Shown here: positions 11,192-25,232 of the stretch, one piece after another
Numbering within the stretch: position 1 is the stretch's first letter
Layout of the letters: each line of letters starts with the position of its first letter
Assembly: GCA_041602695.1 (NCBI GenBank)
Contig: JBFIFS010000003.1
Span: 678 to 64,677 of the forward strand
Source of the DNA: Kiritimatiellia bacterium
Lineage (GTDB): Bacteria; Verrucomicrobiota; Kiritimatiellia; UBA8416; JBFIFS01
Reading direction: 5' to 3'
DNA: 64,000 nt
The notes under the pieces: generated by a model
What the model was told of the DNA's origin: nothing
The model's database searches: none
The model's input: the letters and a program-made list of their open reading frames with translations, nothing else
Made by a program: the position numbers and the translations under genes

Positions 11192-12211
11192 ATGAAGAAC
11201 AGTACCTTCTCGCTACTTTGCCTTATCCTTACGGCAGCACCTCACCTTGCGCGTGCAGACGTAAACAACGGCGACTTCGAGAGCAGCGCCGCGGGCGCTG
11301 CTGACGGCTGGACATATGAAATGACTGAGTTCCTGCAGGTGGCCAAGGAGGCCAATGGCAACAGTTACCTGAAATATGTTAAAGGCAAGCCGGAGTATTT
11401 TGACGCGAAGCAGACGGTCAATATTCCAGGCGGATCTGAAACCATCATGCTGCGGGCCCGCATGAGGCTGAAGGGCTTCGTGAGAAACCAGGACCAGCGA
11501 TGGAAGTGCCCTATGATAGGCATTGACTTCATCAAGGCTGACGGCAGCCGGCGGAAGGAAAAAGGCATCCACCTTGTTTCTGATTCAGGGGACGAATGGT
11601 TCTATCTGTACCGCATGATCAATGTCCCGAGAGGCGCCCAGCAGGCCGAGCTTACGCTAGTAAACGACGCGTCCGCAGGCGAGGTGCATTTCGACGACAT
11701 ATCCATCTCGACCGCCAACGACAAGATGCTCCCGCTCGAGGTAATAAATACGGCCGGACATTTCCAGGCCAGGACCGAGGATGAAACCGTGATCTTCGGC
11801 TGGCGAGCCAGGGTTGCCGGACGCGTACAGCTGCCGGAGAGCGGAGGCGAGTTCTACCTGAACCTGCAGGGTGAGCGGCGGAAAACTGCTTTTGCGGAAA
11901 CGATCCTCGAACTCAATCCCGCGTGGAAGAAGCTCAAGGTCAGCTGCCGCATGAAGAGTGAGTTTCTCGAGGTAGGATTCAGCCCCACTCACACGGTCAA
12001 GCTCGTCCTGGAGTTCGTCGATGAAAATGAAGAGAAGATGGACAAGTGGATCACTCCCATGCAGCTGAAAAGGGACACGCCTGACTGGACGGAGATGAAC
12101 AGCGAGTTCACCGTGCCGGAGGGCGCTGCCGGTCTGAAGATCACGCCGACTGTGCAGCAGTGCGACGGCTCCGGACAGTTCGACGACATCAAAGTCGAGG
12201 TATTACAGTAG
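11192..12211 (+). CDS. secreted protein with two tandem CBM/galactose-binding-like beta-sandwich modules
   Basis: Signal peptide MKNSTFSLLCLILTAAPHLARA. Both halves end in a similar motif (GEVHFDDISIS and GSGQFDDIKVEV). NGDFE...GW is typical of CBM4/9-like modules. Confidence 0.6.
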   Translation: MKNSTFSLLCLILTAAPHLARADVNNGDFESSAAGAADGWTYEMTEFLQVAKEANGNSYLKYVKGKPEYFDAKQTVNIPGGSETIMLRARMRLKGFVRNQDQRWKCPMIGIDFIKADGSRRKEKGIHLVSDSGDEWFYLYRMINVPRGAQQAELTLVNDASAGEVHFDDISISTANDKMLPLEVINTAGHFQARTEDETVIFGWRARVAGRVQLPESGGEFYLNLQGERRKTAFAETILELNPAWKKLKVSCRMKSEFLEVGFSPTHTVKLVLEFVDENEEKMDKWITPMQLKRDTPDWTEMNSEFTVPEGAAGLKITPTVQQCDGSGQFDDIKVEVLQ

Positions 12212-12332: not shown

Positions 12333-12361
12333 TTGCCCGGCCGCCTATAACGCGCTATAGT
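12333..12361 (+). promoter_or_regulatory. possible sigma-70 promoter (TTGCCC-N17-TATAGT) giving a leaderless or near-leaderless mRNA
   Basis: The -10 ends 9 nt before ATG 12371. There is no SD upstream of that ATG. Confidence 0.4.
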
Positions 12362-12370
12362 TTCTATTAT

Positions 12371-12895
12371 ATGAAAAGAATACTTTTTGGATCCGTTGCA
12401 ATATTTGTCCTCACAGCAGCATTCTGCCGTTGTCACGCGAATGAGGAAAATGCGAAGGAAAAGCCAGTCGCCCAGAAGCCGGCTGAAAAGGCAAAAGAGT
12501 TTCTCTCTGAAAGCTACACGGACCCTGAAACCAAGAAGGTATACAGGTGGATCGGGGAGTTCAGGCTCGATGACAGTCCCGCCGCGAGGATGAAAGCGAA
12601 ACTCAAGGGAAAGGCGGCTTACCGTATAACCGGGGCCCTCTACGAGATAAAGATGATAGGCTCGCGGGAGGTCCGGTCGCGCCAATCAGGGACTTGCTGG
12701 GTATATATCGAGGACGCTGACGGCAAAGAGGTCGCCAGGGCCACCAAATCTCTGAACACAATGTGCCCTTCGTGAGGGGGCCGAGGCGGCTACTTCGGTG
12801 AAGTAGCAAAAGAGGGCAAATACACTGCTGTCATCTGGACAAAGAAAGGCACGGCCAATATCGGTGCGAAGTACGAGCTTGATATCAAGTTCTAG
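12371..12895 (+). CDS. candidate exported selenoprotein (174 aa, Sec135 at UGA 12773-12775, CPSU motif), family unknown
   Basis: The track ORF stops at TGA 12773, but the frame stays open for 39 more codons to TAG 12893-12895. A SECIS-like hairpin lies 13 nt after the UGA. A signal peptide is present, a terminator follows the TAG, and the Sec machinery lies nearby. Confidence 0.6.
12789..12807 (+). promoter_or_regulatory. putative bacterial SECIS hairpin
   Basis: Perfect 7-bp stem GCUACUU/AAGUAGC with apical loop CGGUG (contains GGU). It begins 13 nt 3' of UGA 12773-12775. Confidence 0.55.
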
Positions 12896-12939
12896 CCCCG
12901 CCCTGCCCTCTTTCAGTCCCGTCAGATCTTTTTTCATGT

Positions 12940-12972
12940 ACACGCAGGCCAAGACGGCCTGCGTGTTTTTTT
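12940..12972 (+). terminator. rho-independent terminator
   Basis: ACACGCAGGCC-aagac-GGCCTGCGTGT (11-bp stem) followed by a T7 run. It starts 45 nt after TAG 12895. Confidence 0.75.
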
Positions 12973-13004
12973 ATGGTCGGTAACCACACAGGTTGGGAGA
13001 AAAT

Positions 13005-13808
13005 ATGAAATCGGTAGAGGGAATCGGACTGGAAAATGTGAAGGAAGTATACTCTGGCCCCGAAGGCGACCTTTGGGAGCTGGTAATGGGCGAGCAGATC
13101 CACATAGGCGGTTTCGCGTCATCTATGGACCTGGCTGAAAAGGCCGGCATCGGTGCAGGCATGAAGGGCGTTGACCTCTGCAGCTGCAACGGCGGCGGCG
13201 TTAGGTTCCTCCTGCGCTACCGCGAAGTCGCGGAAATGTCTGGGGTGGACGCAACCGAAAAGGTGGTCAACCAGGCCAACGAACGCTGTGCTGCGCAGGG
13301 GCTGGCCGAAAGGGCGTCCTTCGTCCTGGCCGACGTATGCGCCACAGGCCTGCCTGACGGCGAAGCTGATTTCGTCTGGGGTGAGGACGCGTGGTGTTAC
13401 GTCGAGGACAAAGCGGCGCTTATCAAAGAAGCCGCGCGAATCGTTAAGGACGGCGGAACAATCGCGTTCACCGACTGGGTGGAAGGCCCGGCGGGGCTGA
13501 GCGATGAAGAGGCGACCCGCTTCCTGACATTCATGAAGTTTCCAAATGTTCAGACGATAGACGGTTATGCCGCGCTTCTGAAGGCAGAGGGGTGCGAGGT
13601 GAGCGAAGCGTCTGACACAGGCCGGTTTGCTCCTTATTGCGCACTTTACATCGACATGCTGACAAAACAGCTTACAGGTGACGCGCTACGCATCATCGGC
13701 TACGACATGGAGCTGATGCAGGCCATGGGCGGAGAGATGGCATTCATGAAGGAGCTTGCCGAGGCGGGCAAGATTGCCCAGGGCCTTTTCATAGCAAAAA
13801 AGGGCTGA
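13005..13808 (+). CDS. class I SAM-dependent methyltransferase
   Basis: GVDLCSCNGGGVRFL (motif I variant) and KDGGTIAFTDW. GEQIHIGGF resembles the GGEDIHVGLY region of sarcosine/dimethylglycine-type N-methyltransferases (from memory). The track start at 12993 is TTG. ATG 13005 has GGGAGA 5 nt upstream. Confidence 0.75.
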   Translation: MKSVEGIGLENVKEVYSGPEGDLWELVMGEQIHIGGFASSMDLAEKAGIGAGMKGVDLCSCNGGGVRFLLRYREVAEMSGVDATEKVVNQANERCAAQGLAERASFVLADVCATGLPDGEADFVWGEDAWCYVEDKAALIKEAARIVKDGGTIAFTDWVEGPAGLSDEEATRFLTFMKFPNVQTIDGYAALLKAEGCEVSEASDTGRFAPYCALYIDMLTKQLTGDALRIIGYDMELMQAMGGEMAFMKELAEAGKIAQGLFIAKKG

Positions 13809-13815
13809 TCAGGTC

Positions 13816-15033
13816 ATGAGCAGATGCTGTCCGGGAAATACTGATAAGGCCGCCCAGTGTGATCCCACCTGCACTCCGCAGGTGGACACACAGGGCCACT
13901 CGGGCGCATGCCGTCCGGAATACCTGGCATGGTTCACCGACATGGTGAACCACGCCTATGAATTCGCGTCGGCAAAGAAAGAGCAGGGTTCCCCGATAGT
14001 GGGCATCATGTGCGAATACACGCCGCGCGAACTTATAATGGCAGCCGGAGCCGTTCCGGTCTGCATGTGCGGCGGGTCGGCAGAGATGATAACACCTGCC
14101 GAAGAGGACCTGCCGTCTAACCTCTGCCCCCTCATCAAGTCCACTTACGGGTACAGCGTTGAAAAGGCCAACCCTTTCATGGAGATGTGCGACCTGATAA
14201 TTGCTGAGACAACATGCGACGGAAAGAAGAAGATGTATGAACTTCTCAGCGAGCGCCACCCCATGCACGTTCTCGAGCTGACACAGAAGCCTGATGACGA
14301 GGACGCTTTCCTGCACTGGAAGTCCGAGCTTCAGAAGCTTCGTAATGCGCTGGAAGAGCGCTTCAACACGGAAATCACGGACGACAAGCTCAGGGCCGCC
14401 ATAGCGGAAATGAACCGCGAGCGATCGCTTCGCATGGATTTGGCGAAACTTATGCAGGACGACAATCCGCCAATCACGGGCCTGGAGCTGCTGGACCTGA
14501 AGAGCCTGATATCCTGCATCCCTGCCGACATCGACAACTACGAGAAAGCACTCCGGGCGCTTCCAGAAAGAGAGCGCGACAACGCGGCCAAAACGCGCGT
14601 GCTTGTTACAGGAGTCCCGATGCCGCATGGCGCGGAAAAGGTCATCAAGATCATTGAAGACATCGGCGGCATCGTTGTCTGCCAGGAAAACTGCACTGGT
14701 GTGAAACCGATCATCGAGCCCGTCTCTGAAGAAGGCGACCCGCTGGACGCGATCGCGCGGAAGTACTTCGAAATCCCCTGCTCCGTTATGACGCCTAACA
14801 CAGGCCGCATTGAGCTGTTGCGCGGCCTCTGCCGGGAATACCGTCCCGACTGTATCGTAGATGTGGTGTGGCAGGCATGCCTTACATACGACGTCGAGTC
14901 AAGGGCAGTCAGGCAATTCTGCGATAATGAGCTCGCGATCCCCTACATGAAGATAGAAACTGACTATTTCCCATCAGACGCAGCGCGAATAACCAACAGG
15001 CTGCAGGCGCTCTTCGAAACAGCCTCAATGTAG
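13816..15033 (+). CDS. 2-hydroxyacyl-CoA dehydratase/BcrBC-family (HGD-D) protein, paralog 1, with a Cys-rich N-terminus
   Basis: 405 aa. GIMCEYTPRELIMAAGAVPVCMCGG and TCDGKKKMYE are typical of the HgdAB/BadDE/YjiM family. The N-terminus is MSRCCPGNTDKAAQCDPTC. Confidence 0.7.
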   Translation: MSRCCPGNTDKAAQCDPTCTPQVDTQGHSGACRPEYLAWFTDMVNHAYEFASAKKEQGSPIVGIMCEYTPRELIMAAGAVPVCMCGGSAEMITPAEEDLPSNLCPLIKSTYGYSVEKANPFMEMCDLIIAETTCDGKKKMYELLSERHPMHVLELTQKPDDEDAFLHWKSELQKLRNALEERFNTEITDDKLRAAIAEMNRERSLRMDLAKLMQDDNPPITGLELLDLKSLISCIPADIDNYEKALRALPERERDNAAKTRVLVTGVPMPHGAEKVIKIIEDIGGIVVCQENCTGVKPIIEPVSEEGDPLDAIARKYFEIPCSVMTPNTGRIELLRGLCREYRPDCIVDVVWQACLTYDVESRAVRQFCDNELAIPYMKIETDYFPSDAARITNRLQALFETASM

Positions 15034-15038
15034 TTGCC

Positions 15039-15926
15039 ATGAACCCACTGACCGCAGCATATTCATCTCCATGGGTACCGGCGCCGCTGGTGAAGGCCTG
15101 CGGGTTCACGCCCCTTCCCATCTACAGCCCTTCCGATGAATACCCGGCTGCAAATGAACCCGTTCCGACAGAGGGCAGATGCCCCTGGTCTCGGGCCTTC
15201 GAAGACATGATTGAACAATCCGAATTCGCTGCAGTGATCATGACTACCACCTGTGACCAGATGCGTCGCACGGCGGAACTGCTGGAACAGGACCGGGGCG
15301 ACATCATAACACTGACCGTCCCCTCAACCACGTCCATATCGTCAATGCGCCTCTATCAGTCCGAGCTGAGGCGCCTGGCTTCCTTTCTTACCTCTCGCTC
15401 CGGCACCCCGCCCACCTCCGGAGCTATCCTCGGTGCCGCAGCCTCGATCAGGCCAAGAGCCTCCCAAAAGGCGGCGCGCACACCTGTTTGCCTCCTCGGC
15501 AGCCATCTCCCTGTTCCATTCGATGTATTTGAGGCAATCCTGGAGGAGCATGGGGCGTGCATAGCGATTGACGGTATGGAAGCGGGCCCCGCCTTCGCGC
15601 CCAGCCTTGACGATTTCACCGAGGGAGCAAGTCTCGAAGGAACAATCAACGCCCTTGGAGAGGCTTATTTCTCGCAAATCAAAGATTCATTCAGCCGCCC
15701 CAACTCGGCCTTTTATCGATGGCTCTCGCTGGAACTGAAGAGTGCCGCCCCGAAAGGAATAATCATCGCGCGCAACTGCTGGTGTGACAAGTGGGCGATC
15801 GAAGGGATCAGGATACGGGAGTGGACCGGGCTGCCGACACTTGAACTGGAATTCACGTCTGGGGAACTCTCGGTTTCGGCGATTTCCCGGCTTGAAGCGT
15901 TTATGGAAACATGCCGCAATGACTGA
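15039..15926 (+). CDS. HGD-D family protein, paralog 2 (short, 295 aa)
   Basis: PWVPAPLVKACGFTPLPI and TTTCDQMRR motifs are shared with paralogs 1 and 3. There is a 5-nt gap from paralog 1. Confidence 0.6.
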   Translation: MNPLTAAYSSPWVPAPLVKACGFTPLPIYSPSDEYPAANEPVPTEGRCPWSRAFEDMIEQSEFAAVIMTTTCDQMRRTAELLEQDRGDIITLTVPSTTSISSMRLYQSELRRLASFLTSRSGTPPTSGAILGAAASIRPRASQKAARTPVCLLGSHLPVPFDVFEAILEEHGACIAIDGMEAGPAFAPSLDDFTEGASLEGTINALGEAYFSQIKDSFSRPNSAFYRWLSLELKSAAPKGIIIARNCWCDKWAIEGIRIREWTGLPTLELEFTSGELSVSAISRLEAFMETCRND

Positions 15927-17298
15927 AATACCCAACAGGATCACGGTCAAGGAATGGGACCGGCGCTTCGCTGAAGACGCCGCAAAACTCATGGACGCCC
16001 ATGTGCCCTATCTCAAGCCCCTCACCGCGTACGTGGAGGAAGGCGACACTCGCCTTACCCGTCTCAAGTTTGACCCCTCGCCTGCATCGCTCTGGCTCTG
16101 GAACTTCCTGCTCAGCGAAAACGAGAGGCTGTCCGCGAAGCTCGAAGACGGGCATCGGCTGGTGGGAACCATGAAGGACCTTGGGACGGTCCCGGTGATG
16201 GCGTATTCGCTTCCCAACCTTACTGCTTTCTATCCGGACGGAGCGTGGTGGATCCCCTGTATCATGGAAGCTAACGCTTCTGCCCTGAAGGCGGCCGAAG
16301 AGCTCGGAATCAATGAATCAGTCTGTCCGGTCAGGGCAATGGTAGGAGCCATCGCCGCGGAATCGGACTTTCCTGTGCCTGGTCTTATGGTTTGCGCTGT
16401 GGGTGCCACCTGCGACGACTTCTCTGCACTCGCCCAGTTCATAAACGGACTGGGGCACGCAATACACTGGTGGGAACTGCCGCACAGGCGGGCTCCAGCA
16501 GCCGGCGAGGAATCCGTCACACTCCAGGGCGGGCTCTCGGCGCCTGCCTCCCTCGTTAGTTTCGTAGTGGAACAGCTCGCTGAAATCAGAAAGGCGCTCT
16601 CCAAATATGCGGGATCTGAACTCACTGATGAAGCCCTGCGTCTTGGGATAACAGAGGCAAACAGGGCCCGGTCCCTGATTCGGGAAATAAGGAACGCCGT
16701 CTTTTCATCAAAGAAGCGCCTTCTTTCCGCCGTGGACCTGCTGATAGCAGAAATGCTTATCATCCATTTCTGTTCCGACCGCGACGAATGTATCCGGCTG
16801 TTCGAGGCCATTCTCTCTGAAGTGAGGCAGCGAGAAGCCGTTGAGCCGGACTCCGACGCCGTCCGGATATTCTGGGTGAATCCGCCCTCGGACATCAAAG
16901 CAATGAACATCCTCGAAGACTGCGGAATGCGGCTGTGCGGCACTGACTTTATGTTCACTCATTCCCTTTCAGCAATACCCGAAGACCTGCCTCCGCTTGA
17001 AGCACTGGCAATGTGCGTTCTCGCGGACCCGATGATCGGCCCCACGCGTGACCGCGCGGGAATGATAACGGCCGAAAGCCGTCGGCTGGGAGCCGAGGGC
17101 ATCGTGGTTTCAAGGATTCCAGGAGCAAGCCATTGCGCCTTCGAGGGCAGCATTATAAAGGAGCTGGCGGGCGAAGAGCTTGACATTCCGGTGCTTGAGT
17201 TGGAGATTCCTCCGGTATGTGACGCCTACGAGCAGTCCATGAGAGGCCGCCTGGAGGCCCTGAGGGAAACAGTCATCGCGCGCAGGACCAGTCAATGA
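15919..17298 (+). CDS. HGD-D family protein, paralog 3 (459 aa)
   Basis: ATG 15919 overlaps the upstream stop (ATGACTGA). VCPVRAMVG, GATCDDF and the C-terminal IPGASHC...ELE region are typical of the family. Confidence 0.7.
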   Translation: MTEIPNRITVKEWDRRFAEDAAKLMDAHVPYLKPLTAYVEEGDTRLTRLKFDPSPASLWLWNFLLSENERLSAKLEDGHRLVGTMKDLGTVPVMAYSLPNLTAFYPDGAWWIPCIMEANASALKAAEELGINESVCPVRAMVGAIAAESDFPVPGLMVCAVGATCDDFSALAQFINGLGHAIHWWELPHRRAPAAGEESVTLQGGLSAPASLVSFVVEQLAEIRKALSKYAGSELTDEALRLGITEANRARSLIREIRNAVFSSKKRLLSAVDLLIAEMLIIHFCSDRDECIRLFEAILSEVRQREAVEPDSDAVRIFWVNPPSDIKAMNILEDCGMRLCGTDFMFTHSLSAIPEDLPPLEALAMCVLADPMIGPTRDRAGMITAESRRLGAEGIVVSRIPGASHCAFEGSIIKELAGEELDIPVLELEIPPVCDAYEQSMRGRLEALRETVIARRTSQ

Positions 17299-18086
17299 GT
17301 AAAGGAAGAGCATTTCTTGGGATAGACGCCGGGTCAAGGACCATCAAGGCCGTCCTGCTTTCAGGCGATGGCGAAGTAATTGACTCGGGGGTGGTCGACC
17401 AGGGCGTGAAACAGGCCGAGCTTGCCGAGGCCCTGGCCGCTGACCTCATAGCAGGGGCAGGCCTTGCGCGCGCCGATGTCGCAATGACCGTCGCAACGGG
17501 ATACGGCAGGGACCATATAGAACTGGCCAACACTACGTTTTCTGAAATCACATGCCATGCAAGGGGCGCGGCACATATTGCCCCCGATGCGCGCACCATC
17601 ATCGATATTGGCGGCCAGGACAGCAAGCTGATCAAGCTCGACGAAAAAGGACGGGTCCATGACTTTGCCATGAACGACCGCTGCGCGGCGGGAACTGGCC
17701 GCTTTCTTGAGGTGGTGGCCAGCAGGCTCGAGGTGCCGCTCGCCGAGCTCGACGCCCTCTCCGCCGCGTCCAAGTCGCCATGTATAATAAGCAGTACCTG
17801 CGTCGTCTTCGCGGAAACCGAAATCATAGGCCTCCTTGCACAGGAGATTCTACCGGCTGATATCGCGGCCGGGATATTCGCCGCAATAGCATCACGCGTG
17901 CAGGCAATGGCCGGCAGGCGTGTTGGCGAACCGGTGGTAATGACCGGAGGGGCCGCACTCTTTGAAGGACTGCATGAGGCGCTTGAAAAGGATTTTGGCG
18001 TAAAGATAACCGTAATCGAAAACCCAAGGCTTGCCGGCGCACTTGGAGCAGCGTTAATAGCAAAGGACAAAGCGGAAGAAGGATAA
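17295..18086 (+). CDS. CoA-substrate-specific enzyme activase (BcrAD/BadFG/HgdC-type ATPase)
   Basis: GIDAGSRTIKAVL, DIGGQDSK, NDRCAAGTGRFLE, VVMTGGAA. 263 aa. ATGA overlap with paralog 3. Confidence 0.85.
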   Translation: MSKGRAFLGIDAGSRTIKAVLLSGDGEVIDSGVVDQGVKQAELAEALAADLIAGAGLARADVAMTVATGYGRDHIELANTTFSEITCHARGAAHIAPDARTIIDIGGQDSKLIKLDEKGRVHDFAMNDRCAAGTGRFLEVVASRLEVPLAELDALSAASKSPCIISSTCVVFAETEIIGLLAQEILPADIAAGIFAAIASRVQAMAGRRVGEPVVMTGGAALFEGLHEALEKDFGVKITVIENPRLAGALGAALIAKDKAEEG

Positions 18087-18137: not shown

Positions 18138-18161
18138 CACTTTCTGCGGATGCAGAAAGTG
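18138..18161. other. 10-bp hairpin between the activase 3' end and the tRNA-Sec 3' end (possible bidirectional terminator/processing structure)
   Basis: CACTTTCTGC-ggat-GCAGAAAGTG. No flanking U-tract on either strand. Confidence 0.35.
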
Positions 18162-18256
18162 GCGGGAGTGAGTGGGAATCGAACCCAACCGGGGCCGGTT
18201 AAAGCCCCACACTGGATTTGAAGTCCAGGAGGCCCACCAGGTACCTGTTCACTCCC
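18160..18256 (-). tRNA. selC: tRNA-Sec (anticodon UCA), CCA encoded, 97 nt
   Basis: 8-bp acceptor stem GGGAGTGA/TCACTCCC. Anticodon arm CTGGA-CTTCAAA-TCCAG. Long variable arm (GGGGC...GCCCC). T loop TTCGATT. Adjacent to selA. Confidence 0.9.
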
Positions 18257-18295: not shown

Positions 18296-19699
18296 ATGAA
18301 TAAAGCAAAGAACAAAGACAGCGGCAACGCGGCCCTGCTGCGCAGCATACCGGGCGTGGACGTGCTGCTGAAACAGGCGGAACTGCAGGCCGAGATCGAG
18401 CAGCACGGCATAAGCATTGTTACGGGAATTATCAAGGAATCGCTTGGCTTCCTTCGCGAGCAAATCAAAAGCAAAGGCAAAGGCGACACATCCTCGGAAT
18501 CTATCGTCACAGACTGCAAACGCCGGCTGGAACTGTCCCTTCAGCCGCGATTACGCCACGCAGTGAACGCTACGGGCATAATCCTGCATACCGGGCTTGG
18601 GCGGTCCCCTATCCCGCAGGCTGGACTCGACAGGCTGTCGGACTGCACGACGTTCTGCAACCTCCAGGCCGATCTGGAATCGGGAAAGAGGTCACGCCGC
18701 GAAGCCAACCTGACTGAAACGGTGAAGGCATTGACGGGCGCCGAAGACGCCATAGTTGTAAACAACTGTGCCGGCGCCACGATGCTTGTCCTGAAGGCCC
18801 TTGCGCGGGGGAGAGAAGTCGTGGTCTCCAGGGGCGAGCTCATCGAGATAGGCGGCTCTTTTCGTCTTCCGGACATCATGAAGGAGAGCGGAGCGGTCCT
18901 CAATGAGGTAGGATCAACTAACAAGACCCACCCGAAGGATTACGAATCTGCTGTAAGCGACAAAACCGCCGTGCTCTTCAAGGCACATAAGAGCAATTAC
19001 AGCATTGTGGGGTTTTCACAGGAAGTGACAATCGATGTGATCGCCGGAATTGGAAAGAAGCACGGCGTCACGGTGGTTGACGACCTCGGCTGCGGCGCGC
19101 TCGTCAATACGGAGAACTACGGCCTGCCGCACGAAGTAACGGTCCGGGAATCACTTGAAGCCGGCGCGGACGTAGCGCTGTTCAGCACAGACAAGCTCAT
19201 CGGCGGGCCGCAGGGCGGCATGATCGTCGGAAAGAAGGAGATAATTGAAAAGATCCGCAAGGACCCAATGTACAGGATCCTGCGAATCTGCAAACTGACT
19301 CTATCGGCACTGGAAGGAACACTAAAGCTCTTCACCCAGCCGGAGCTGCTGGAACGGAAACACCCCCTCTACGCGACACTTGCCAGGCAGCCGGCCGACA
19401 TCACCGGACAGGCAAAGCGGATTGCTGACGAGCTTAGCAGGACCCAGCCCGGCTGGAAGGTTGAGGCCGTAGAAACCACCTCGATCCTCGGCGGCGGCTC
19501 ACTGCCCGGCGCCGAGCTGCCGTCCAGCGGAGTTTCAATAACTGCTGACGGACTGTCAGCGCAGGCGCTCGCATCCTCGTTCCGCAACTCGCCGACTCCG
19601 GTGTTCGGCCGGATAGAAAAAGAAACGTTCATACTGGATGTGCGAACAGTTACAGAGCAGGATGAAAAGGCAATAATCAAGACAGCTGAAAACTTATGA
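18296..19699 (+). CDS. selA: L-seryl-tRNA(Sec) selenium transferase
   Basis: NATGIILHTGLGRS and FSTDKLIGGPQGG (PLP-Lys). AAGGAGG SD. 467 aa. Confidence 0.9.
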   Translation: MNKAKNKDSGNAALLRSIPGVDVLLKQAELQAEIEQHGISIVTGIIKESLGFLREQIKSKGKGDTSSESIVTDCKRRLELSLQPRLRHAVNATGIILHTGLGRSPIPQAGLDRLSDCTTFCNLQADLESGKRSRREANLTETVKALTGAEDAIVVNNCAGATMLVLKALARGREVVVSRGELIEIGGSFRLPDIMKESGAVLNEVGSTNKTHPKDYESAVSDKTAVLFKAHKSNYSIVGFSQEVTIDVIAGIGKKHGVTVVDDLGCGALVNTENYGLPHEVTVRESLEAGADVALFSTDKLIGGPQGGMIVGKKEIIEKIRKDPMYRILRICKLTLSALEGTLKLFTQPELLERKHPLYATLARQPADITGQAKRIADELSRTQPGWKVEAVETTSILGGGSLPGAELPSSGVSITADGLSAQALASSFRNSPTPVFGRIEKETFILDVRTVTEQDEKAIIKTAENL

Positions 19700-21666
19700 G
19701 CAAGGCCAGGAAGACAGCATGCGGCGGGGGCGCACCACAGGCCCAGGAAAGCCCTGACGCCCGTACCGTTTGCCTCACGGTCGGTACGGCAGGGCATATA
19801 GATCATGGGAAGACGCAGCTGACCATCTTCCTCACCGGCTGCAATACGGACCGACTTCCTGAAGAGAAGTCACGCGGCATGACCATTGACCTTGGCTTCG
19901 CCACATGCATCCTCCCTGACAATCGAAGAATCGGGATCGTGGACGTGCCAGGGCACGAAAAATTTGTCCACAACATGGTCGCTGGAGCCACAGGCATTGA
20001 TGTTGTGCTGCTCGTTATAGCTGCTGACGACGGCGTTATGCCGCAGACCATTGAGCATTTCCATATTGTCCGCCTCCTTGGAATCAAGGCAGGCATGATA
20101 GCGATCACAAAGACAGACCTTGTCGACAGCGCCCGCGTCGAGACAGTCAGGGCCCAGGCGGAGCAGCTTGTGGCCGGGAGCTTCCTCGACGGCGCGCCCA
20201 TCGTGCCCCTTTCAACGAAGACTGGCGAAGGATACGATGAGTTCTATACGAAGTTTGTTGAACTCGTAGACCATATGGCTGAGCGAGAATCTTCCGGCCC
20301 ATTCCGAATGCACGTTGAGCGCGCGTTCGTGTTGAAGGGCCTGGGCACGATCGTCTCGGGCATCCCGGTGTCAGGCCGGATCACACAGGGAGACACGCTC
20401 GAGCTTCTGCCTGAAGGGCGGAAGGTGAGAGTAAAGGGGCTGCAGGTCTACGGCCAGAAATCCAGGGAAGGCCTTTCCGGGGAATGTGTTGCTATAAACC
20501 TGGCGGACATCCAGCATACCGAGCTGCACCGGGGAATGCAGCTCTGCGCTCCGGGGTTCTTCGAATCCGCGCGCTTCTTCGACGTGCGCTTCTTTTCCCT
20601 GCCCTCCGTCGGGAAACCGCTCAAGCCGAGACAGCAGATACGCCTGCACCTGGGAACGTCGGATGTCCCCGGCCATCTTGTTTTGCCCACTAACGAACCG
20701 CTCAAACCGGGTGAGGAGACATACGCGCAGCTCCAGATGAAACGCGGCGTGGTTGCCGCACCCGGCGATTCGTTCATACTCAGGACCCTCAGCCCCATCA
20801 CGACTGTAGGGGGCGGCTATGTCGTCTCACCTGACGACAAGCGCCTGCGCAGAAGACACAGCGACTCTTGGGCCAACTCGCTCGAAGAAAAGGAGCGTGT
20901 CATGGACAGCGTGTCCGATACGATTATGCAGGCCTTCTCAACTGAGAGCCCCATTCCGCTCGGCCTCGATGACATCGCAAAAGCTGCGCTGCTCCATGAG
21001 GACGCCCTGGGCGAGGACATTTCGAAACTTATTGAAAGCGGCAGGCTCAGGCTGACAGCCAAGCGCAAATATGTGAGCAAAGACATGATAGAAAGGGCCG
21101 AAACAGTGATCGTAGACCGCATTACGGCCCTTCACAAAGAAGTGCAGCTGTCGGCGGGTTTTTCGAAGAAAGAGATCTATTCATCGCTGTCCGCCAATCA
21201 CGATATCATGGACATGGCCCTTGAATCGCTCATAGAAAAGAAGGTCATCACCCGCTCCACTCACGGCTATTTCATAACCTCCATGGCGCCGGCACTCTCT
21301 GACGCGCAGGCGAAGATAGCGGAAAAGATACTCAGCCTTTACTCTGAAACACGCTTCAAGAGTCCACGGAGGGACGAGGTGCCAGAAAGGGTTGCTGCAC
21401 CCGAAAAGGCTTCCGGCAAGATCATGAACTACCTCCTGCAAACCGGCAGGCTGGTCGACATCGGCAGCGGAGTCATTCTGCATGAAGATGTCATCGAGGA
21501 ATCGAAGGCCATAATCTCCGACTATCTCGCCGAACATGACTCGCTTGACGCGGCATCCTTCAAGAACCTGATAGACTCATCCCGTAAATATGCTATTCCA
21601 CTGCTTGAATACTGGGACGGCAAGGGGCTCACGAAGCGAATTGGAAACAGCAGAATACTGAAGTAA
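19696..21666 (+). CDS. selB: selenocysteine-specific translation elongation factor
   Basis: G domain (GTAGHIDHGKT, DVPGHEKF, TKTD) plus a long C-terminal winged-helix region. ATGA overlap with selA. 656 aa. Confidence 0.9.
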   Translation: MSKARKTACGGGAPQAQESPDARTVCLTVGTAGHIDHGKTQLTIFLTGCNTDRLPEEKSRGMTIDLGFATCILPDNRRIGIVDVPGHEKFVHNMVAGATGIDVVLLVIAADDGVMPQTIEHFHIVRLLGIKAGMIAITKTDLVDSARVETVRAQAEQLVAGSFLDGAPIVPLSTKTGEGYDEFYTKFVELVDHMAERESSGPFRMHVERAFVLKGLGTIVSGIPVSGRITQGDTLELLPEGRKVRVKGLQVYGQKSREGLSGECVAINLADIQHTELHRGMQLCAPGFFESARFFDVRFFSLPSVGKPLKPRQQIRLHLGTSDVPGHLVLPTNEPLKPGEETYAQLQMKRGVVAAPGDSFILRTLSPITTVGGGYVVSPDDKRLRRRHSDSWANSLEEKERVMDSVSDTIMQAFSTESPIPLGLDDIAKAALLHEDALGEDISKLIESGRLRLTAKRKYVSKDMIERAETVIVDRITALHKEVQLSAGFSKKEIYSSLSANHDIMDMALESLIEKKVITRSTHGYFITSMAPALSDAQAKIAEKILSLYSETRFKSPRRDEVPERVAAPEKASGKIMNYLLQTGRLVDIGSGVILHEDVIEESKAIISDYLAEHDSLDAASFKNLIDSSRKYAIPLLEYWDGKGLTKRIGNSRILK

Positions 21667-21677
21667 AGGAACCTAAT

Positions 21678-23255
21678 ATGGACCCTAAGGAAAAACGCAA
21701 GAGAGTGATGACCCGCTCTATCAAGCTGGGCCACTGCGTATGCGACCCGAAGAAGCCGTGCCCCTGCCCACTCTTTGAAGAGAAGAACATATGCACCTGC
21801 GCCGGGGAGCGGGAGCCCGTGGAAAGGTCCTCGTCAGGTGTGCGCCTGACGGATTTTGTGAGGGCCGCCGGATGCGCCAGCAAGATCGGACAGAAAGACC
21901 TGCACGAAGTGCTCAAACTCCTCCCGGAGGTAAATGACCCTCGACTGCTGGTCGGTATAGCAACTGCCGATGACGCCGGCGTGTTTCAGCTTACAGACGA
22001 CACCGCGGTTGTCCAGACGGTAGACGTCTTTACGCCTGGCGTCAACGACCCGCACACCTTCGGACGTATCGCCGCGTGCAATTCCCTCAGCGATGTCTAC
22101 GCCATGGGCGGAAAGCCCGTTACTGCCCTGTCGATAATTGGATTCCCGATCTACTCCCTTCCGCACGAGGTCATGGCTGACATTATCAAGGGCGGAATGG
22201 AAGTGCTCAAGGAAGCCGGCACCATCCTGCTCGGCGGGCACAGTATCAATGACGAGGAGATCAAGTTCGGCTTCGCGGTTACAGGTCTTATCGGTAAAGA
22301 CGCGCTAATCACAAACAGCGGCGCGCAGCCCGGCGATGTGGTAGTCTTGACCAAGGCCCTGGGCACCGGAATCATTTCCCTGGCGGACCAGATCAACAAG
22401 GCATCTGCCGAGTCAATAGCCGCCCTTTCCGAATCAATGTCCACGCTTAACCGGATTCCGTCGGAGATCATGACGGAATGCGGGGCACACGCCTGTACCG
22501 ACGTAACGGGGTTCGGGCTCCTCGGACACATGGCGCAGGTCGTAAAGGAGAGCGGCGTGACTGTCGAAATCAGCACTGAGGCGCTGCCGCTGCTGCCGTC
22601 CGTGATGGAATACGCCGAGGGCGGCATGTATTCCGGCGCCAACGAACGAAATGCCGAATACAGCGCGCCCGTCACTGAATTCGATGAGAGCATTCCGGAA
22701 CACGTCAGGGCCATACTTTATGACGCCCAGACTTCCGGAGGTTTGCTCATATTCTTCCCGCCCGAACGCGCAGACGAGGCCTTGCAGAAAATGCATGACC
22801 AGGGCGTGGGCTACGCGTCAGTAATAGGCCGCGTCACCGAAGCGTCTGAAGGCAGAATAATCATCAAGAGCTCGATCGACTCAACAACCAATCCAAATGA
22901 AAAGACAACAGGCAAACCATCGTCCGCAAAGGATGAGGAGGACAATGAAATGACGAATGAAGCATGCTGCACGCACGACGCCCCAACGGGGGAAGCCGGC
23001 GATCCTATCCAGAAGTTCAAGAATTTCATATCATCAACACTGCAGCCGGGCGCGATTGATGTTGTCTCCAAAGAGCTTATTGCGCTGGCACTGAGCATAG
23101 GCGTACAGTGTGTGCCATGCTCGAAGATGCACGTGAAGAAGGCGCTCGAGATGGGAATCAGCAAGGAAGAGATCGAAGAGGCGGCCGCAATCTCAATTGC
23201 CTTTGGGGGCTGCAAATCACTTATGCTCTGGATGGAACTCAAGAAGGAGATGTAG
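21678..23255 (+). CDS. selD: selenide,water dikinase fused to an N-terminal Cys-rich module and a C-terminal AhpD/CMD-like CxxC domain
   Basis: SelD core: RLTDFVRAAGCASKIG (Cys form, Cys66) plus AIR-synthase-like repeats. The N-terminus is GHCVCDPKKPCPCPLFEEKNICTC. The C-terminus LIALALSIGVQCVPCSKMH is a carboxymuconolactone-decarboxylase-family motif. Confidence 0.85.
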   Translation: MDPKEKRKRVMTRSIKLGHCVCDPKKPCPCPLFEEKNICTCAGEREPVERSSSGVRLTDFVRAAGCASKIGQKDLHEVLKLLPEVNDPRLLVGIATADDAGVFQLTDDTAVVQTVDVFTPGVNDPHTFGRIAACNSLSDVYAMGGKPVTALSIIGFPIYSLPHEVMADIIKGGMEVLKEAGTILLGGHSINDEEIKFGFAVTGLIGKDALITNSGAQPGDVVVLTKALGTGIISLADQINKASAESIAALSESMSTLNRIPSEIMTECGAHACTDVTGFGLLGHMAQVVKESGVTVEISTEALPLLPSVMEYAEGGMYSGANERNAEYSAPVTEFDESIPEHVRAILYDAQTSGGLLIFFPPERADEALQKMHDQGVGYASVIGRVTEASEGRIIIKSSIDSTTNPNEKTTGKPSSAKDEEDNEMTNEACCTHDAPTGEAGDPIQKFKNFISSTLQPGAIDVVSKELIALALSIGVQCVPCSKMHVKKALEMGISKEEIEEAAAISIAFGGCKSLMLWMELKKEM

Positions 23256-23258
23256 AGA

Positions 23259-23921
23259 ATGAGCGCTGCTGACAGGGCTTCTTATCTATCTGAAGTATGC
23301 GGGCTCCTCCGGACCCACTGGCCGGAGAACCGGACCGTGAACATCGTCTGCCATGGACACAGCGTTCCGGCGGGCTACTTCGCGACTCCGATGGTTGACA
23401 CAATGAATGCCTACCCTCACCTTCTGCATGCCGGCCTTAAGCAGCGATTCCCCTTTGCCGTCATTAACGTCATAGTCTCTGCCGTCGGCGGAGAGAACTC
23501 CGAATCCGGAGCCAACCGCTTTGATCGTGACGTTCTGTGCCATCGCCCCGACATCATAACCATAGATTACGGGCTTAATGACCGCGGCATCGGACTCGAG
23601 AAGGCGCGCGACGCATGGTCAACAATGATTGAGGCGGGATCGGCGCACGGCGCCAAAATCATCCTCCTTACCCCTACCCTTGACGCCACCCAGGCCGCAT
23701 CTTACAAGGGCGAAGACAAAACTCTGCTCGGTCAGCACGCTGCCCAGATACGCACGCTCGCGGAGGACTTCGGAGTCGGCCTCGCAGACAGCTTTGGCGC
23801 GTGCACGAAGTTTATTTCTGACCGGGACATTTCCGACATCCTGTCGTGGTCAAACCATCCGAACCGGACCGGCCATGAGCTCGTTGCCGGCGAGCTCCTG
23901 CGCTGGTTTCGCGCGGGTTAA
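23259..23921 (+). CDS. SGNH/GDSL-family hydrolase
   Basis: Block I IVCHGHSVPAGY, block III DYGLND, block V NHPNRTGH. 3-nt gap after selD. Confidence 0.7.
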   Translation: MSAADRASYLSEVCGLLRTHWPENRTVNIVCHGHSVPAGYFATPMVDTMNAYPHLLHAGLKQRFPFAVINVIVSAVGGENSESGANRFDRDVLCHRPDIITIDYGLNDRGIGLEKARDAWSTMIEAGSAHGAKIILLTPTLDATQAASYKGEDKTLLGQHAAQIRTLAEDFGVGLADSFGACTKFISDRDISDILSWSNHPNRTGHELVAGELLRWFRAG

Positions 23922-24073
23922 CCGGGGACTGCTGCAGCGCTGTCAATCTGGATTGCAACTGAAGCTTGATGGCCCTATTCTGTTGCCTTAGGGCAGAGTC
24001 GACGACTGCAGAGGCCGTAATACCTTATGATGCTGCGTCTGCGTGCCTATCACAAGAAGACAGGAATAAGTGC

Positions 24074-25210: not shown

Positions 25211-25232
25211 ACCCGTATATTTATTGCCGCTG

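What the first reader, a model, noticed from the sequence alone, without database searches (positions are those of the whole stretch)
12333..12972. Candidate new exported CxxU selenoprotein: in-frame UGA with a SECIS-like hairpin
The evidence that UGA 12773-12775 is decoded as Sec is as follows.
- The ORF starting at 12371 reads ...LNTMCPS and then hits TGA (12773-12775).
- The same frame continues without a stop for 39 more codons (GGRGGYFGEVAKEGKYTAVIWTKKGTANIGAKYELDIKF) to TAG 12893-12895.
- That TAG sits 45 nt before a strong intrinsic terminator (11-bp stem plus T7, 12940-12972).
- Thirteen nt after the UGA there is a perfect 7-bp hairpin, GCUACUU-CGGUG-AAGUAGC (12789-12807). Its apical loop contains GGU, which is the position and loop content expected for a SelB-dependent bacterial SECIS.
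- Decoding UGA as Sec yields C-P-S-U, a classic CxxU redox motif.
- The N-terminus is a Sec-pathway signal peptide (MKRILFGSVAIFVLTAAFCRCHA), so the product would be periplasmic or exported.
- selC, selA, selB and selD lie 5-10 kb downstream on the same locus.

I do not recognise the protein family. There is no SD before the ATG. A TTGCCC-N17-TATAGT promoter ending 9 nt upstream suggests a leaderless mRNA.
Basis: partly seen in the sequence, partly recalled or inferred. Interest (0 to 1): 0.85.

Follow-up and report, generated by a model that had tools for sequence, protein, structure and literature searches.

The report
New exported selenocysteine protein family
The "stop" codon at 12773 almost certainly encodes selenocysteine, in a small secreted protein that founds a selenoprotein family absent from current catalogues, found here only in one bacterial superphylum, and truncated by every gene caller.

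Summary
ORF 12371-12772 ends ...M-C-P-S, meets TGA at 12773-12775, and stays open for 39 more codons to TAG 12893.

I recovered 43 related genes from 41 other loci in Lentisphaerota, Kiritimatiellota, Verrucomicrobiota and unclassified PVC genomes. Every one has TGA at this position and none has a Cys codon. After the TGA comes the most conserved segment of the protein, U-GG[RS]GGY[FL]GEV..G.Y.A.[IV]W, with twice the third-codon-position variability of positions 1 and 2.

The hairpin at 12789-12807 is an 8-bp stem with a GGU loop starting 13 nt after the UGA. It pairs in 320 of 320 cells across 40 sequences, with 20 compensatory double changes. It meets all four criteria of the published bacterial SECIS model. 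tRNA-Sec, selA, selB and selD lie 5-10 kb downstream, and TGA is otherwise the commonest ordinary stop in the window.

Pfam, NCBIfam (June 2026) and the 119-family catalogue of May 2026 do not contain this family. All database entries are truncated at the UGA.

The predicted fold is a beta-sandwich, not thioredoxin-like. Function is inferred only: an extracytoplasmic Cys/Sec redox or metal(loid)-handling protein. It is often encoded beside a NapH-like membrane Fe-S protein, a double-cubane reductase, a methyltransferase and the sel genes.

The parts
12333..12361 (+). Sigma-70-like promoter candidate TTGCCC-N17-TATAGT. It ends 9 nt before the ATG, and no Shine-Dalgarno sequence follows.
   Evidence: 9 of 12 matches. 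The same layout occurs in orthologue L001 (TTGCCC-N17-TACAAT) and weakly in L004 (TTGACC-N17-TAGCCT). Function is untested.
12371..12895 (+). Complete coding sequence of the selenoprotein precursor: 174 aa including Sec135, ending at stop TAG 12893-12895.
   Evidence: The TGA is retained in all 43 homologues, the downstream frame is conserved, and third-position entropy is twice that of positions 1 and 2.
12371..12439 (+). Predicted Sec-pathway signal peptide MKRILFGSVAIFVLTAAFCRCHA, with cleavage after CHA giving a mature protein of about 151 aa.
   Evidence: Read directly from the sequence. Homologues have equivalent hydrophobic N-termini with AxA-type sites. No predictor was run.
12764..12775 (+). 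Active-site motif C132-P-S-U135 (TGC CCT TCG TGA). The Sec codon is 12773-12775.
   Evidence: The Cys is invariant in 39 of 39 truncated proteins. TGA is invariant in 43 of 43 genes.
12789..12807 (+). Bacterial SECIS hairpin. The stem is 12789-12796 paired with 12800-12807 (8 bp) and the apical loop is GGU at 12797-12799. It lies inside the codons for G-Y-F-G-E-V-A.
   Evidence: All 320 cells pair, and 20 cells in 3 pairs carry compensatory changes. The hairpin folds at -10.4 kcal/mol. It meets the four criteria of the bSECIS model quoted.
12776..12892 (+). C-terminal 39 codons translated only if the UGA is decoded. They are predicted to supply the last three beta-strands of the domain.
   Evidence: In the AF2 model of the contiguous homologue P0047, the equivalent segment forms strands 219-224, 227-237 and 241-251.
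12940..12972 (+). Intrinsic terminator (11-bp stem, 8 G-C pairs, T7). It makes the gene monocistronic in this genome.
   Evidence: It is conserved, with compensatory changes, in L001 and L004.
18160..18256 (-). selC, the tRNA-Sec gene (anticodon UCA).
   Evidence: Rfam RF01852, 72.7 bits. tRNA-Sec also lies within 4 kb of the family gene in 9 of 34 other loci.
18296..23255 (+). selA (18296-19699), selB (19696-21666) and selD (21678-23255). SelD is the Cys type and is fused to an AhpD/CMD domain.
   Evidence: selA is linked to the family gene in 8 of 39 loci and selB in 6 of 39.
12993..18086 (+). Recurrent neighbour cluster: SAM methyltransferase (12993-13808), double-cubane-cluster reductase (13816-15033), two HGD-D paralogues (15039-15926, and an ORF listed as 15784-17298 whose homology begins about 16084), and an activase ATPase (17295-18086).
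   Evidence: NF040772 scores 420.8 bits against a cutoff of 350; TIGR00241 scores 241 bits. Near the family gene, the double-cubane reductase recurs in 17 of 39 loci, the methyltransferase in 11 and the activase in 6.
11192..12211 (+). Upstream secreted 339-aa protein of unknown function, with a sub-threshold CBM_4_9 match. It is syntenic in the closest relatives only.
   Evidence: syntenic in L001 and L004.

Best explanation
Window 12371-12895 is one gene for a 174-residue secreted selenoprotein.

**Decoding (comparative evidence plus established mechanism).** When the ribosome reaches UGA 12773-12775, SelB-GTP carrying Sec-tRNA(Sec) binds the hairpin at 12789-12807. Both factors are encoded 5-9 kb downstream. 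Selenocysteine is inserted and translation continues for 39 codons to TAG 12893. The hairpin is an 8-bp stem with a GGU loop, and the loop starts 21 nt after the UGA.

**Product (predicted).** The 23-residue signal peptide is removed on export. The mature protein of about 151 aa is a beta-sandwich domain. Its last three strands are encoded after the UGA, so the 134-aa termination product would be incomplete.

**Family.** The invariant Cys132 and Sec135 sit in a glycine-rich loop, C-P-[ST]-U-G-G-x-G-G. The gene belongs to a family that is missing from current catalogues. I found it only in the PVC superphylum, and every member uses Sec and none uses Cys.

**Function (inferred, about 0.4).** The Cys-Sec pair cycles between a selenolate/thiolate form and a selenenylsulfide, or chelates a soft metal or metalloid, outside the cytoplasm. 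In about half of the genomes it works with the NapH/MauN-type membrane Fe-S protein encoded immediately downstream. More loosely, it is linked to a cytoplasmic module of methyltransferase, double-cubane reductase and activase.
For: **Shown by computation**
1. TGA is kept in all 43 family genes, and none has TGC or TGT.
2. The downstream frame is kept for 38-47 codons (about 190 in the two-domain Victivallis loci L040 and L043), the true stops vary (TAA, TAG, TGA), and the segment is the most conserved in the protein.
3. Entropy by codon position after the UGA is 0.51, 0.40 and 1.05. GC by codon position is the same before and after the UGA.
4. The hairpin pairs in 100% of cells in its 8 core pairs. 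Compensatory changes include C-G to G-C (with Ala to Pro), U-A to C-G (with Phe to Leu plus GAA to GAG) and Tyr to His plus GUA to GUG. Structures slid by 1-3 columns pair in only 24-64% of cells.
5. All four bSECIS criteria are met.
6. selC, selA, selB and selD are in the window, and sel genes are linked to the family gene in many other loci.
7. TGA ends 20 of 43 long ORFs in the window, so the genetic code is standard.
8. P0047 is a contiguous homologue in which the N-terminal part and the extension are one ORF.
9. Pfam and NCBIfam give no significant hit, and the family does not match any entry in the 119-family table.
10. The partners recur near the gene: NapH-like in 19 of 39 loci, double-cubane reductase in 17, methyltransferase in 11.

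**From established knowledge**
- The SelB/SECIS mechanism.
- CxxU redox chemistry.
Against: - No experimental evidence exists (75Se labelling or peptide mass spectrometry).
- No Cys-containing homologue was found, which is unusual for selenoproteins and removes one customary line of support.
- The hairpin lacks the bulged U of the E. coli fdhF SECIS.
- The motif GYFGEV is conserved at protein level too. It is kept in the homologue without Sec (P0047), whose hairpin is weakened. Part of the hairpin's conservation could therefore reflect protein constraint, although the compensatory changes that alter amino acids argue for RNA selection.
- For function: the NapH-like partner is absent from this 64-kb window, and here the gene has its own promoter and terminator.
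- Fold matches are weak. No PDB hit has E below 1e-3.
- The full read-through protein could not be modelled.
Confidence: 0.92

Rival explanations
1. The UGA is an ordinary stop and the product is the 134-aa protein. The conserved downstream sequence would then be a separate small ORF or a regulatory RNA element such as an attenuator or stability hairpin.
For: Every database entry ends at the UGA. Some pipelines call the downstream stretch as 31-38 aa mini-ORFs. TGA is a normal stop elsewhere in the window.
Against: The downstream stretch has no conserved start codon and always lies in the frame of the upstream ORF. Variation is concentrated at third codon positions. It is contiguous with the N-terminal domain in P0047. 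In the AF2 model it supplies three strands of the same sandwich. It is also implausible that 43 of 43 genes across three phyla would end two residues after their only invariant Cys, always with TGA, when the true stops further downstream use all three stop codons.
Confidence: 0.03
2. The UGA is read through, but by a near-cognate or suppressor tRNA (Trp, Cys or Arg), or by a reassigned code, and not by Sec-tRNA(Sec).
For: Read-through alone would explain the downstream coding conservation. No selenium data exist.
Against: The code is standard. A hairpin that fits the SECIS model lies at the canonical distance and is under RNA-level selection. The complete Sec machinery is adjacent here and in many other loci. 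The position is three residues after an invariant Cys, giving the CxxU motif that recurs in many catalogued selenoprotein families. If Cys or Trp were acceptable at this site, some lineages would be expected to encode it directly, and none of the 43 does.
Confidence: 0.03
3. A rival for function only. The protein is not a redox enzyme. It is a periplasmic carrier or chaperone that binds a soft metal or metalloid (Se, As, Hg, Cu) on the Cys-Sec pair and passes it to the membrane and cytoplasmic module of NapH-like protein, methyltransferase and double-cubane reductase. This would be analogous to the proposed selenocysteine-assisted organometallic (SAO) systems or to the SoxY, CueP and P19 carriers.
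For: The fold is a beta-sandwich, with weak Foldseek similarity to P19/FtrA, CueP and SoxYZ. The reactive loop is glycine-rich, like the GGCGG of SoxY (my own knowledge). In L012 and L025 the gene sits in a tight co-directional cluster with the NapH-like protein, a membrane-anchored 235-aa protein, the methyltransferase and the double-cubane reductase. The genes are linked to selA, selB, selC and selD. Haft noted that NF040772 double-cubane proteins almost always co-occur with SelD.
Against: All structural matches are non-significant (E of 5e-3 or higher, TM 0.2-0.5). Neighbourhood association does not identify a ligand. The methyltransferase reaches no curated family cut-off; its best hits are DVU_1556, PmtA and ArsM at E of 1e-8 to 1e-11.
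Confidence: 0.3

Closest known systems
Bacterial CxxU/UxxC selenoproteins decoded through SelB and SECIS (for example SelW-like, AhpD-like, GrdA and DsbA/DsbG-like selenoproteins)
   Same: An in-frame UGA sits in a CxxU motif. The SECIS hairpin lies inside the coding region just downstream. The sel genes are present. A redox role is presumed.
   Different: There is no sequence or profile match to any of these families. The fold is a beta-sandwich and not thioredoxin-like or AhpD-like. No Cys-containing homologues exist. The family was found only in the PVC superphylum.
E. coli fdhF-type SECIS and the bSECISearch consensus model
   Same: A stem-loop starts 11-13 nt after the UGA. The apical loop carries G-G/U in its first positions and is closed by a C-G pair. 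The loop lies 16-37 nt from the UGA. The free energy is below -7.5 kcal/mol.
   Different: The stem is a perfect 8 bp with a 3-nt loop and has no bulged U (my own knowledge of fdhF). The stem is embedded in a conserved G-Y-F-G-E-V peptide, so RNA and protein constraints are superimposed.
SAO (selenocysteine-assisted organometallic) loci of Clostridia and other anaerobes (Haft, bioRxiv 10.1101/2022.07.06.499078)
   Same: Extracytoplasmic selenoproteins are truncated in databases. Double-cubane NF040772 proteins and their activase are frequently adjacent. There is a strong link to selenium genes.
   Different: None of the Sao families matches. The partners here are a NapH-like Fe-S membrane protein and a SAM methyltransferase, not an ABC transporter or a MerB-like lyase. 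The phyla are different.
Periplasmic Ig-like carriers (SoxY, CueP, P19/FtrA/FetP)
   Same: All are small exported beta-sandwiches. SoxY carries its reactive Cys in a Gly-rich segment. Weak Foldseek hits were obtained.
   Different: E-values are 0.02-0.08 and TM-scores are at most 0.49. There is no sequence similarity. The reactive pair here is Cys plus Sec in an internal loop, not in a C-terminal arm.
DnaJ / anti-TRAP CxxCxGxG zinc-finger motif
   Same: C-P-S-U-G-G-R-G fits the pattern CxxCxGxG. There is a weak NCBIfam RtpA match (E = 0.036).
   Different: There is a single copy, whereas a zinc centre needs two. Pfam gives no hit at all, so no DnaJ cysteine-rich-domain match. The surrounding fold is a sandwich.

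Membership tests
Sec-decoded (SelB-dependent) bacterial selenoprotein gene | An in-frame UGA is conserved at the same position in homologues. | tested here: met
   All 43 genes carry TGA.
Sec-decoded (SelB-dependent) bacterial selenoprotein gene | Protein-coding conservation continues downstream of the UGA in the same frame. | tested here: met
   The motif GG[RS]GGY[FL]GEV..G.Y is conserved. Codon-position entropy is 0.51, 0.40 and 1.05. P0047 is a contiguous homologue.
Sec-decoded (SelB-dependent) bacterial selenoprotein gene | The hairpin fits the bSECIS model: loop of 3-9 nt, stem of 4-16 bp, G in the first two loop positions, 16-37 nt from UGA to loop, and free energy of -7.5 kcal/mol or lower. 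| tested here: met
   The stem is 8 bp, the loop is GGU closed by C-G, the spacing is 21 nt and the free energy is -10.4 kcal/mol. Covariation is shown.
Sec-decoded (SelB-dependent) bacterial selenoprotein gene | selA, selB, selC and selD are present in the genome. | tested here: met
Sec-decoded (SelB-dependent) bacterial selenoprotein gene | Homologues have Cys aligned to the Sec. This is customary support and not strictly defining. | tested here: not met
   None was found in the exhaustive HMMER search, in three word-indexed searches or in the genome scan.
Sec-decoded (SelB-dependent) bacterial selenoprotein gene | Selenium is incorporated into the polypeptide (75Se labelling or mass spectrometry). 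| not testable with these tools
   This needs an experiment.
Any catalogued prokaryotic selenoprotein family (Pfam, NCBIfam, or Table 1 of PMC13188914) | A profile-HMM match at or near the family threshold. | tested here: not met
   Pfam gives no hit at E of 0.01 or below. NCBIfam release 20 gives only noise, the best being E = 0.013 at 16 bits against a cutoff of 168. Nearly all of the 119 listed families are defined by InterPro-based domain identifiers (mostly Pfam or NCBIfam models).
Thioredoxin-fold CxxU/UxxC oxidoreductases | A thioredoxin-like alpha/beta fold with the motif at the N-terminus of a helix. | tested here: not met
   The AF2 models are beta-sandwiches, and the motif lies in a loop between strands. 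There are no thioredoxin-family hits.
DnaJ-type CxxCxGxG zinc-finger domain | Paired CxxCxGxG repeats and a match to the Pfam DnaJ cysteine-rich-domain model. | tested here: not met
   There is one motif only and no Pfam hit. The RtpA match is weak, E = 0.036.
Leaderless mRNA | The transcription start site lies at or within a few nt of the start codon. | not testable with these tools
   Only a promoter-like motif 9 nt upstream is available. It is partly conserved.

The most novel reading that the evidence does not exclude
The selenoprotein is the extracytoplasmic entry point of a dedicated pathway specific to the PVC superphylum. The pathway would comprise the selenoprotein, a NapH-like membrane Fe-S protein, a membrane-anchored 235-aa protein, a SAM methyltransferase, and a double-cubane [8Fe-9S] reductase with its activase. 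It is physically tied to selC, selA, selB and selD. It would capture and reductively process or methylate a chalcogen or metalloid, possibly selenium itself, on an obligatory Cys-Sec site. This would give the enigmatic double-cubane reductases a physiological, selenium-linked substrate.
Probability: 0.15. Interest if true: 0.85.

Novelty: new member of a known kind. Interest (0 to 1): 0.62.

Why it matters
- **A new family.** It adds a well-supported selenoprotein family to the roughly 119 catalogued. It comes from phyla (Lentisphaerota, Kiritimatiellota, Verrucomicrobiota) whose names do not appear in the selenoprotein papers I searched.
- **Why it was missed.** The family has no Cys-containing homologues, so the standard searches that rely on Cys/Sec pairs cannot find it. 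That probably explains why it has gone unnoticed and why every database entry I examined is a truncated protein, unnamed or labelled only 'hypothetical'.
- **Annotation.** At least 43 genes need re-annotation, and the 31-38 aa mini-ORFs called downstream need to be removed.
- **Biology.** It is a CxxU selenoprotein on an exported beta-sandwich and not a thioredoxin fold. Its SECIS stem is written into a conserved peptide motif, which is a clean case of overlapping RNA and protein constraint in which amino-acid changes (Ala/Pro, Phe/Leu, Tyr/His) track base-pair compensation.
- **Link to double-cubane reductases.** Its recurrent linkage to double-cubane reductases and to the sel genes independently echoes the unexplained co-occurrence of double-cubane proteins with SelD reported by Haft. 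It offers a tractable handle on that open question.

Tried and rejected
- **Direct submission of the read-through protein.** I therefore searched with residues 40-134. I modelled the 134-aa part and the contiguous homologue P0047 instead.
- **First genome scan.** The scan with the single protein found nothing. An alignment of 39 truncated proteins was too divergent to give search patterns. An alignment of five read-through sequences worked.
- **Spurious hits.** Three long hits of the HMMER search (P0007, P0020, P0031) are low-complexity or repeat proteins and were discarded.
- **Fold search.** The 134-aa model gave no PDB match with E below 0.6. The P0047 model gave only generic Ig-like matches, so I make no fold-family assignment.
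- **A second selenoprotein in selD?** I checked whether selD (21678-23255) runs through a Sec codon into the in-frame ORF 23259-23921. The intervening stop is TAG and the next ORF is unrelated, so I rejected this.
- **HGD-D ORFs.** I checked whether the second and third HGD-D ORFs are joined by a TGA. They are in different frames, so I rejected this.
- **Other candidates in the window.** A crude scan for other TGA-with-nearby-Cys read-through candidates returned only this gene plus hits that I took, without checking each one, to be overlapping-frame noise.
- **Literature.** Haft & Tolstoy 2025 could not be read because it is not held. Its families were covered indirectly through their NCBIfam models.
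- **Metagenome scan.** It was not used, because the other collections gave enough.
Full report
**1. The observation**

- An ORF runs from ATG 12371 and ends ...L-N-T-M-C-P-S at TGA 12773-12775.
- The same frame continues GGRGGYFGEVAKEGKYTAVIWTKKGTANIGAKYELDIKF to TAG 12893-12895.
- A strong intrinsic terminator (11-bp stem, T7) lies at 12940-12972.
- A TTGCCC-N17-TATAGT promoter-like site lies at 12333-12361 and ends 9 nt before the ATG. No Shine-Dalgarno sequence follows.
- The hairpin at 12789-12807 folds as 8 bp plus a GGU triloop, at -10.4 kcal/mol, z = -3.87. A larger 66-nt context is not exceptional on its own.
- tRNA-Sec is at 18160-18256 on the minus strand (ARAGORN and Rfam). selA, selB and selD follow at 18296-23255.
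- TGA is the commonest ordinary stop codon in the window, ending 20 of 43 ORFs of 200 aa or more. The organism therefore uses the standard code.

**2. Homologues**

A word-indexed search with the read-through protein found only two entries, and both end at the UGA. One of them, L001, is 77% identical. Its DNA keeps the TGA, the frame and the TAG. The extension carries 3 synonymous and 2 non-synonymous codon changes, and the sequence diverges more after the TAG.

An exhaustive HMMER search with residues 40-134 found 41 hits. About 37 are small proteins of 125-210 aa at 30-60% identity, and every one ends exactly at ...C-x-[ST], the last residue of the query. Uniform termination two residues after the only invariant Cys is the signature of systematic truncation by gene callers.

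I fetched DNA for four of these. Each has TGA followed by an in-frame GG[RS]GG[YH][FL]GEV... extension.

I then scanned one genome per GTDB species, using patterns taken only from the region downstream of the UGA, so the scan was blind to the codon at the Sec position. It returned 36 loci. All are Lentisphaerota/Victivallales, Kiritimatiellota, Verrucomicrobiota or MAGs labelled only 'PVC group' or 'bacterium'. In every locus where the motif could be located, the codon is TGA. One locus carries two tandem copies, both with TGA.

In total 43 of 43 genes have TGA and none has TGC or TGT. The extensions are 38-47 codons long and end in TAA, TAG or TGA. The exceptions are the two Victivallis loci, where a second repeat of the domain, without Sec, follows.

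**3. Coding signature and contiguity**

Across 40 distinct sequences, the 51 nt after the UGA have entropy of 0.51, 0.40 and 1.05 at codon positions 1, 2 and 3. The two Gly codons right after the UGA vary only at their third base. GC content by codon position is the same upstream and downstream of the UGA. The segment after the UGA is the best conserved part of the protein.

One homologue, P0047 (266 aa, an SHD1 domain plus the family domain), has neither Cys nor Sec...KMMIPSGDWTKGGYFGEVTADGEYTAVVW... It is a single uninterrupted ORF. This shows that the 'extension' belongs to the same domain.

In its AF2 model (pLDDT 78.6) the equivalent residues form the last three strands of a beta-sandwich. 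A product terminated at the UGA would therefore be structurally incomplete.

**4. The SECIS element**

In the 40-sequence alignment, the 8 core pairs (window 12789-12796 with 12800-12807) are paired in 320 of 320 cells. Three pairs carry compensatory double substitutions, in 20 cells in total.
- C-G changes to G-C or U-A. A synonymous change at the Gly third base is compensated by Ala changing to Pro or Thr.
- U-A changes to C-G. Phe UUC changing to Leu CUC is compensated by GAA changing to GAG.
- U-A changes to C-G. Tyr UAC changing to His CAC is compensated by GUA changing to GUG.

Structures slid by 1-3 columns pair in only 24-64% of cells, and none of 500 shuffles reached the observed covariation score.

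The loop is GGU, or GGC in 3 of 40 sequences, closed by an invariant C-G pair. It starts 21 nt after the UGA. This satisfies all four constraints of the published bacterial SECIS model, quoted from PMC13188914:
- a loop of 3-9 nt and a stem of 4-16 bp;
- G in the first two loop positions, in the pattern N1-G-[G/U]-N-N2;
- 16-37 nt between the UGA and the loop;
- a free energy of -7.5 kcal/mol or lower.

The stem is written into the codons of G-Y-F-G-E-V, so protein and RNA constraints overlap. In the homologue without Sec, the peptide is kept but the stem is weakened to 6 bp and -3.7 kcal/mol.

**5. Is the family known?**

- Pfam gives no hit.
- NCBIfam release 20 (June 2026) holds the curated selenoprotein models of Haft and colleagues. 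It gives only noise: the best hit is E = 0.013, plus a weak anti-TRAP hit driven by the CxxCxGxG-like motif.
- The May 2026 review lists 119 prokaryotic selenoprotein families and subfamilies, nearly all defined by InterPro-based domain identifiers (mostly Pfam or NCBIfam models). None corresponds to this family.
- The names of the PVC phyla do not appear in the selenoprotein papers I searched: the 2026 review, BSepDB, deep-Sep and the SAO preprint. Two full-text searches pairing 'selenoprotein' with Lentisphaerae or Kiritimatiell- returned nothing relevant.
- A profile of the C-terminal extension, searched against 5.8 billion proteins, found only 31-38 aa mini-ORFs, which are mis-called extensions. 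It found no full-length Cys form. No database source gives these proteins a functional name.

The lack of Cys homologues explains why search methods built on Cys/Sec pairs would miss the family. I could not read Haft & Tolstoy 2025. Its families are covered indirectly through NCBIfam.

**6. Fold**

The AF2 model of the 134-aa part has pLDDT 82, above 90 over the domain. It has no PDB match with E below 0.6. The P0047 model gives only generic Ig-like sandwich matches with E of 5e-3 or higher: GH2 Ig domains, P19/FtrA, CueP, SoxYZ and superoxide reductase. The protein is therefore not thioredoxin-like. I make no fold-family assignment.

**7. Genomic context**

tblastn of the window's neighbouring proteins against 39 loci, with annotation from Pfam and NCBIfam, gives the following counts near the family gene.

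| Neighbour | Loci (of 39) |
|---|---|
| NapH/MauN-type polytopic 4Fe-4S protein, immediately downstream on the same strand | 19 |
| Double-cubane-cluster reductase (NF040772; window 13816-15033, 420.8 bits against a cutoff of 350) | 17 |
| SAM methyltransferase (window 12993-13808) | 11 |
| Activase (window 17295-18086) | 6 |
| selA | 8 |
| selB | 6 |
| tRNA-Sec within the flank (of 34 loci) | 9 |

The NapH-like gene is absent from this 64-kb window. In L012 and L025 the order is selenoprotein, NapH-like protein, a 235-aa membrane-anchored protein, methyltransferase and double-cubane reductase. These genes are co-directional and tightly packed. Haft's SAO preprint had already noted that NF040772 double-cubane proteins almost always co-occur with SelD and often flank selenoprotein loci. 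The present cluster is an independent instance from the PVC superphylum.

**8. Mechanism**

Supported by comparative evidence plus established knowledge: SelB and Sec-tRNA(Sec) decode UGA 12773 with the help of the hairpin at 12789-12807, giving a 174-aa precursor.

Read from the sequence: a 23-residue signal peptide, so the mature protein of about 151 aa is extracytoplasmic.

Inferred: the Cys132-x-x-Sec135 pair in its Gly-rich loop acts in one of two ways.
- It may be a selenenylsulfide/selenolate redox centre, recycled by the NapH-like electron conduit where that gene is present (my preferred reading, about 0.4).
- It may be a binding or hand-off site for a soft metal or metalloid that feeds the module of methyltransferase and double-cubane reductase (about 0.3).

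The 'leaderless mRNA' suggestion is plausible but untested.

**9. Verdict**

This is a genuine member of a selenoprotein family that is not in current catalogues: a new member of a known kind. It has several unusual traits.
- It uses Sec in every member and has no Cys forms.
- It was found only in the PVC superphylum.
- It is exported and has a beta-sandwich fold.
- Its SECIS is superimposed on a conserved peptide.
- It is linked to the sel genes and to a double-cubane reductase.

Confidence that the UGA encodes Sec is about 0.92. Its function remains an inference.

Noticed in passing
window 21678-23255: SelD here is the Cys type (GCASK). It carries an N-terminal Cys-rich extension (CVCDPKKPCPCP...CTC) and a C-terminal AhpD/CMD domain with CVPC. 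That domain resembles the AhpD domains of the MduS and ArsM-AhpD selenoproteins (E of 1e-12 to 1e-13). The ORF ends in TAG, so it is not a second read-through.
   Followed up: partly
window 12993-18086: A methyltransferase, a double-cubane [8Fe-9S]-type reductase (NF040772, above its cutoff), two further HGD-D paralogues and an activase form a co-directional cluster between the selenoprotein gene and selC/selA. The same genes recur near the family gene in other PVC genomes, which echoes the double-cubane/SelD co-occurrence reported by Haft.
   Followed up: partly
L040 4073 onward; L043 1099 onward (Victivallis): In these two loci the read-through region is about 190 codons long. It contains a second, degenerate copy of the domain that has neither Cys nor Sec at the motif position. 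This two-domain selenoprotein would be invisible to gene callers.
   Followed up: no
L039 3391 and about 4295: Two tandem paralogues of the family lie side by side. Both have TGA, after ...KLCSS and ...KLCAS. The second has GGGGGLFGEV.
   Followed up: partly
L044 268-1068 (protein P0047): This paralogue has an SHD1 domain and has lost both Cys and Sec (KMMIPSGDWTKGGYFGEV). It retains a weakened relic of the SECIS stem (6 bp, -3.7 kcal/mol). Several Sec members also carry N-terminal SHD1 domains.
   Followed up: partly
L012 5364-6074; L025 5364-6068: A conserved protein of about 235 aa with an N-terminal membrane anchor and no annotation lies between the NapH-like gene and the methyltransferase. 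Its start overlaps the NapH-like stop. It may be a further component of the system.
   Followed up: no
Proteins P0048-P0054 (31-38 aa): Public annotations contain 'hypothetical protein' mini-ORFs that are really the C-terminal extensions of truncated family members.
   Followed up: partly
window 11192-12211: A secreted 339-aa protein with only a sub-threshold CBM_4_9 match lies directly upstream. It is syntenic in the two closest relatives (L001, L004) but not in the wider family.
   Followed up: partly
L001 and L002 (both from GCA_041627975.1): One public assembly holds both a copy of the gene identical to the window and a 77%-identical variant, on separate short contigs. It therefore mixes two related strains or species.
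   Followed up: no
window 25224-26192 and 23966-25210: A DmeF-type CDF Co/Ni efflux transporter and a xylanase/esterase-like protein lie just beyond selD. No link to the selenoprotein is evident.
   Followed up: no
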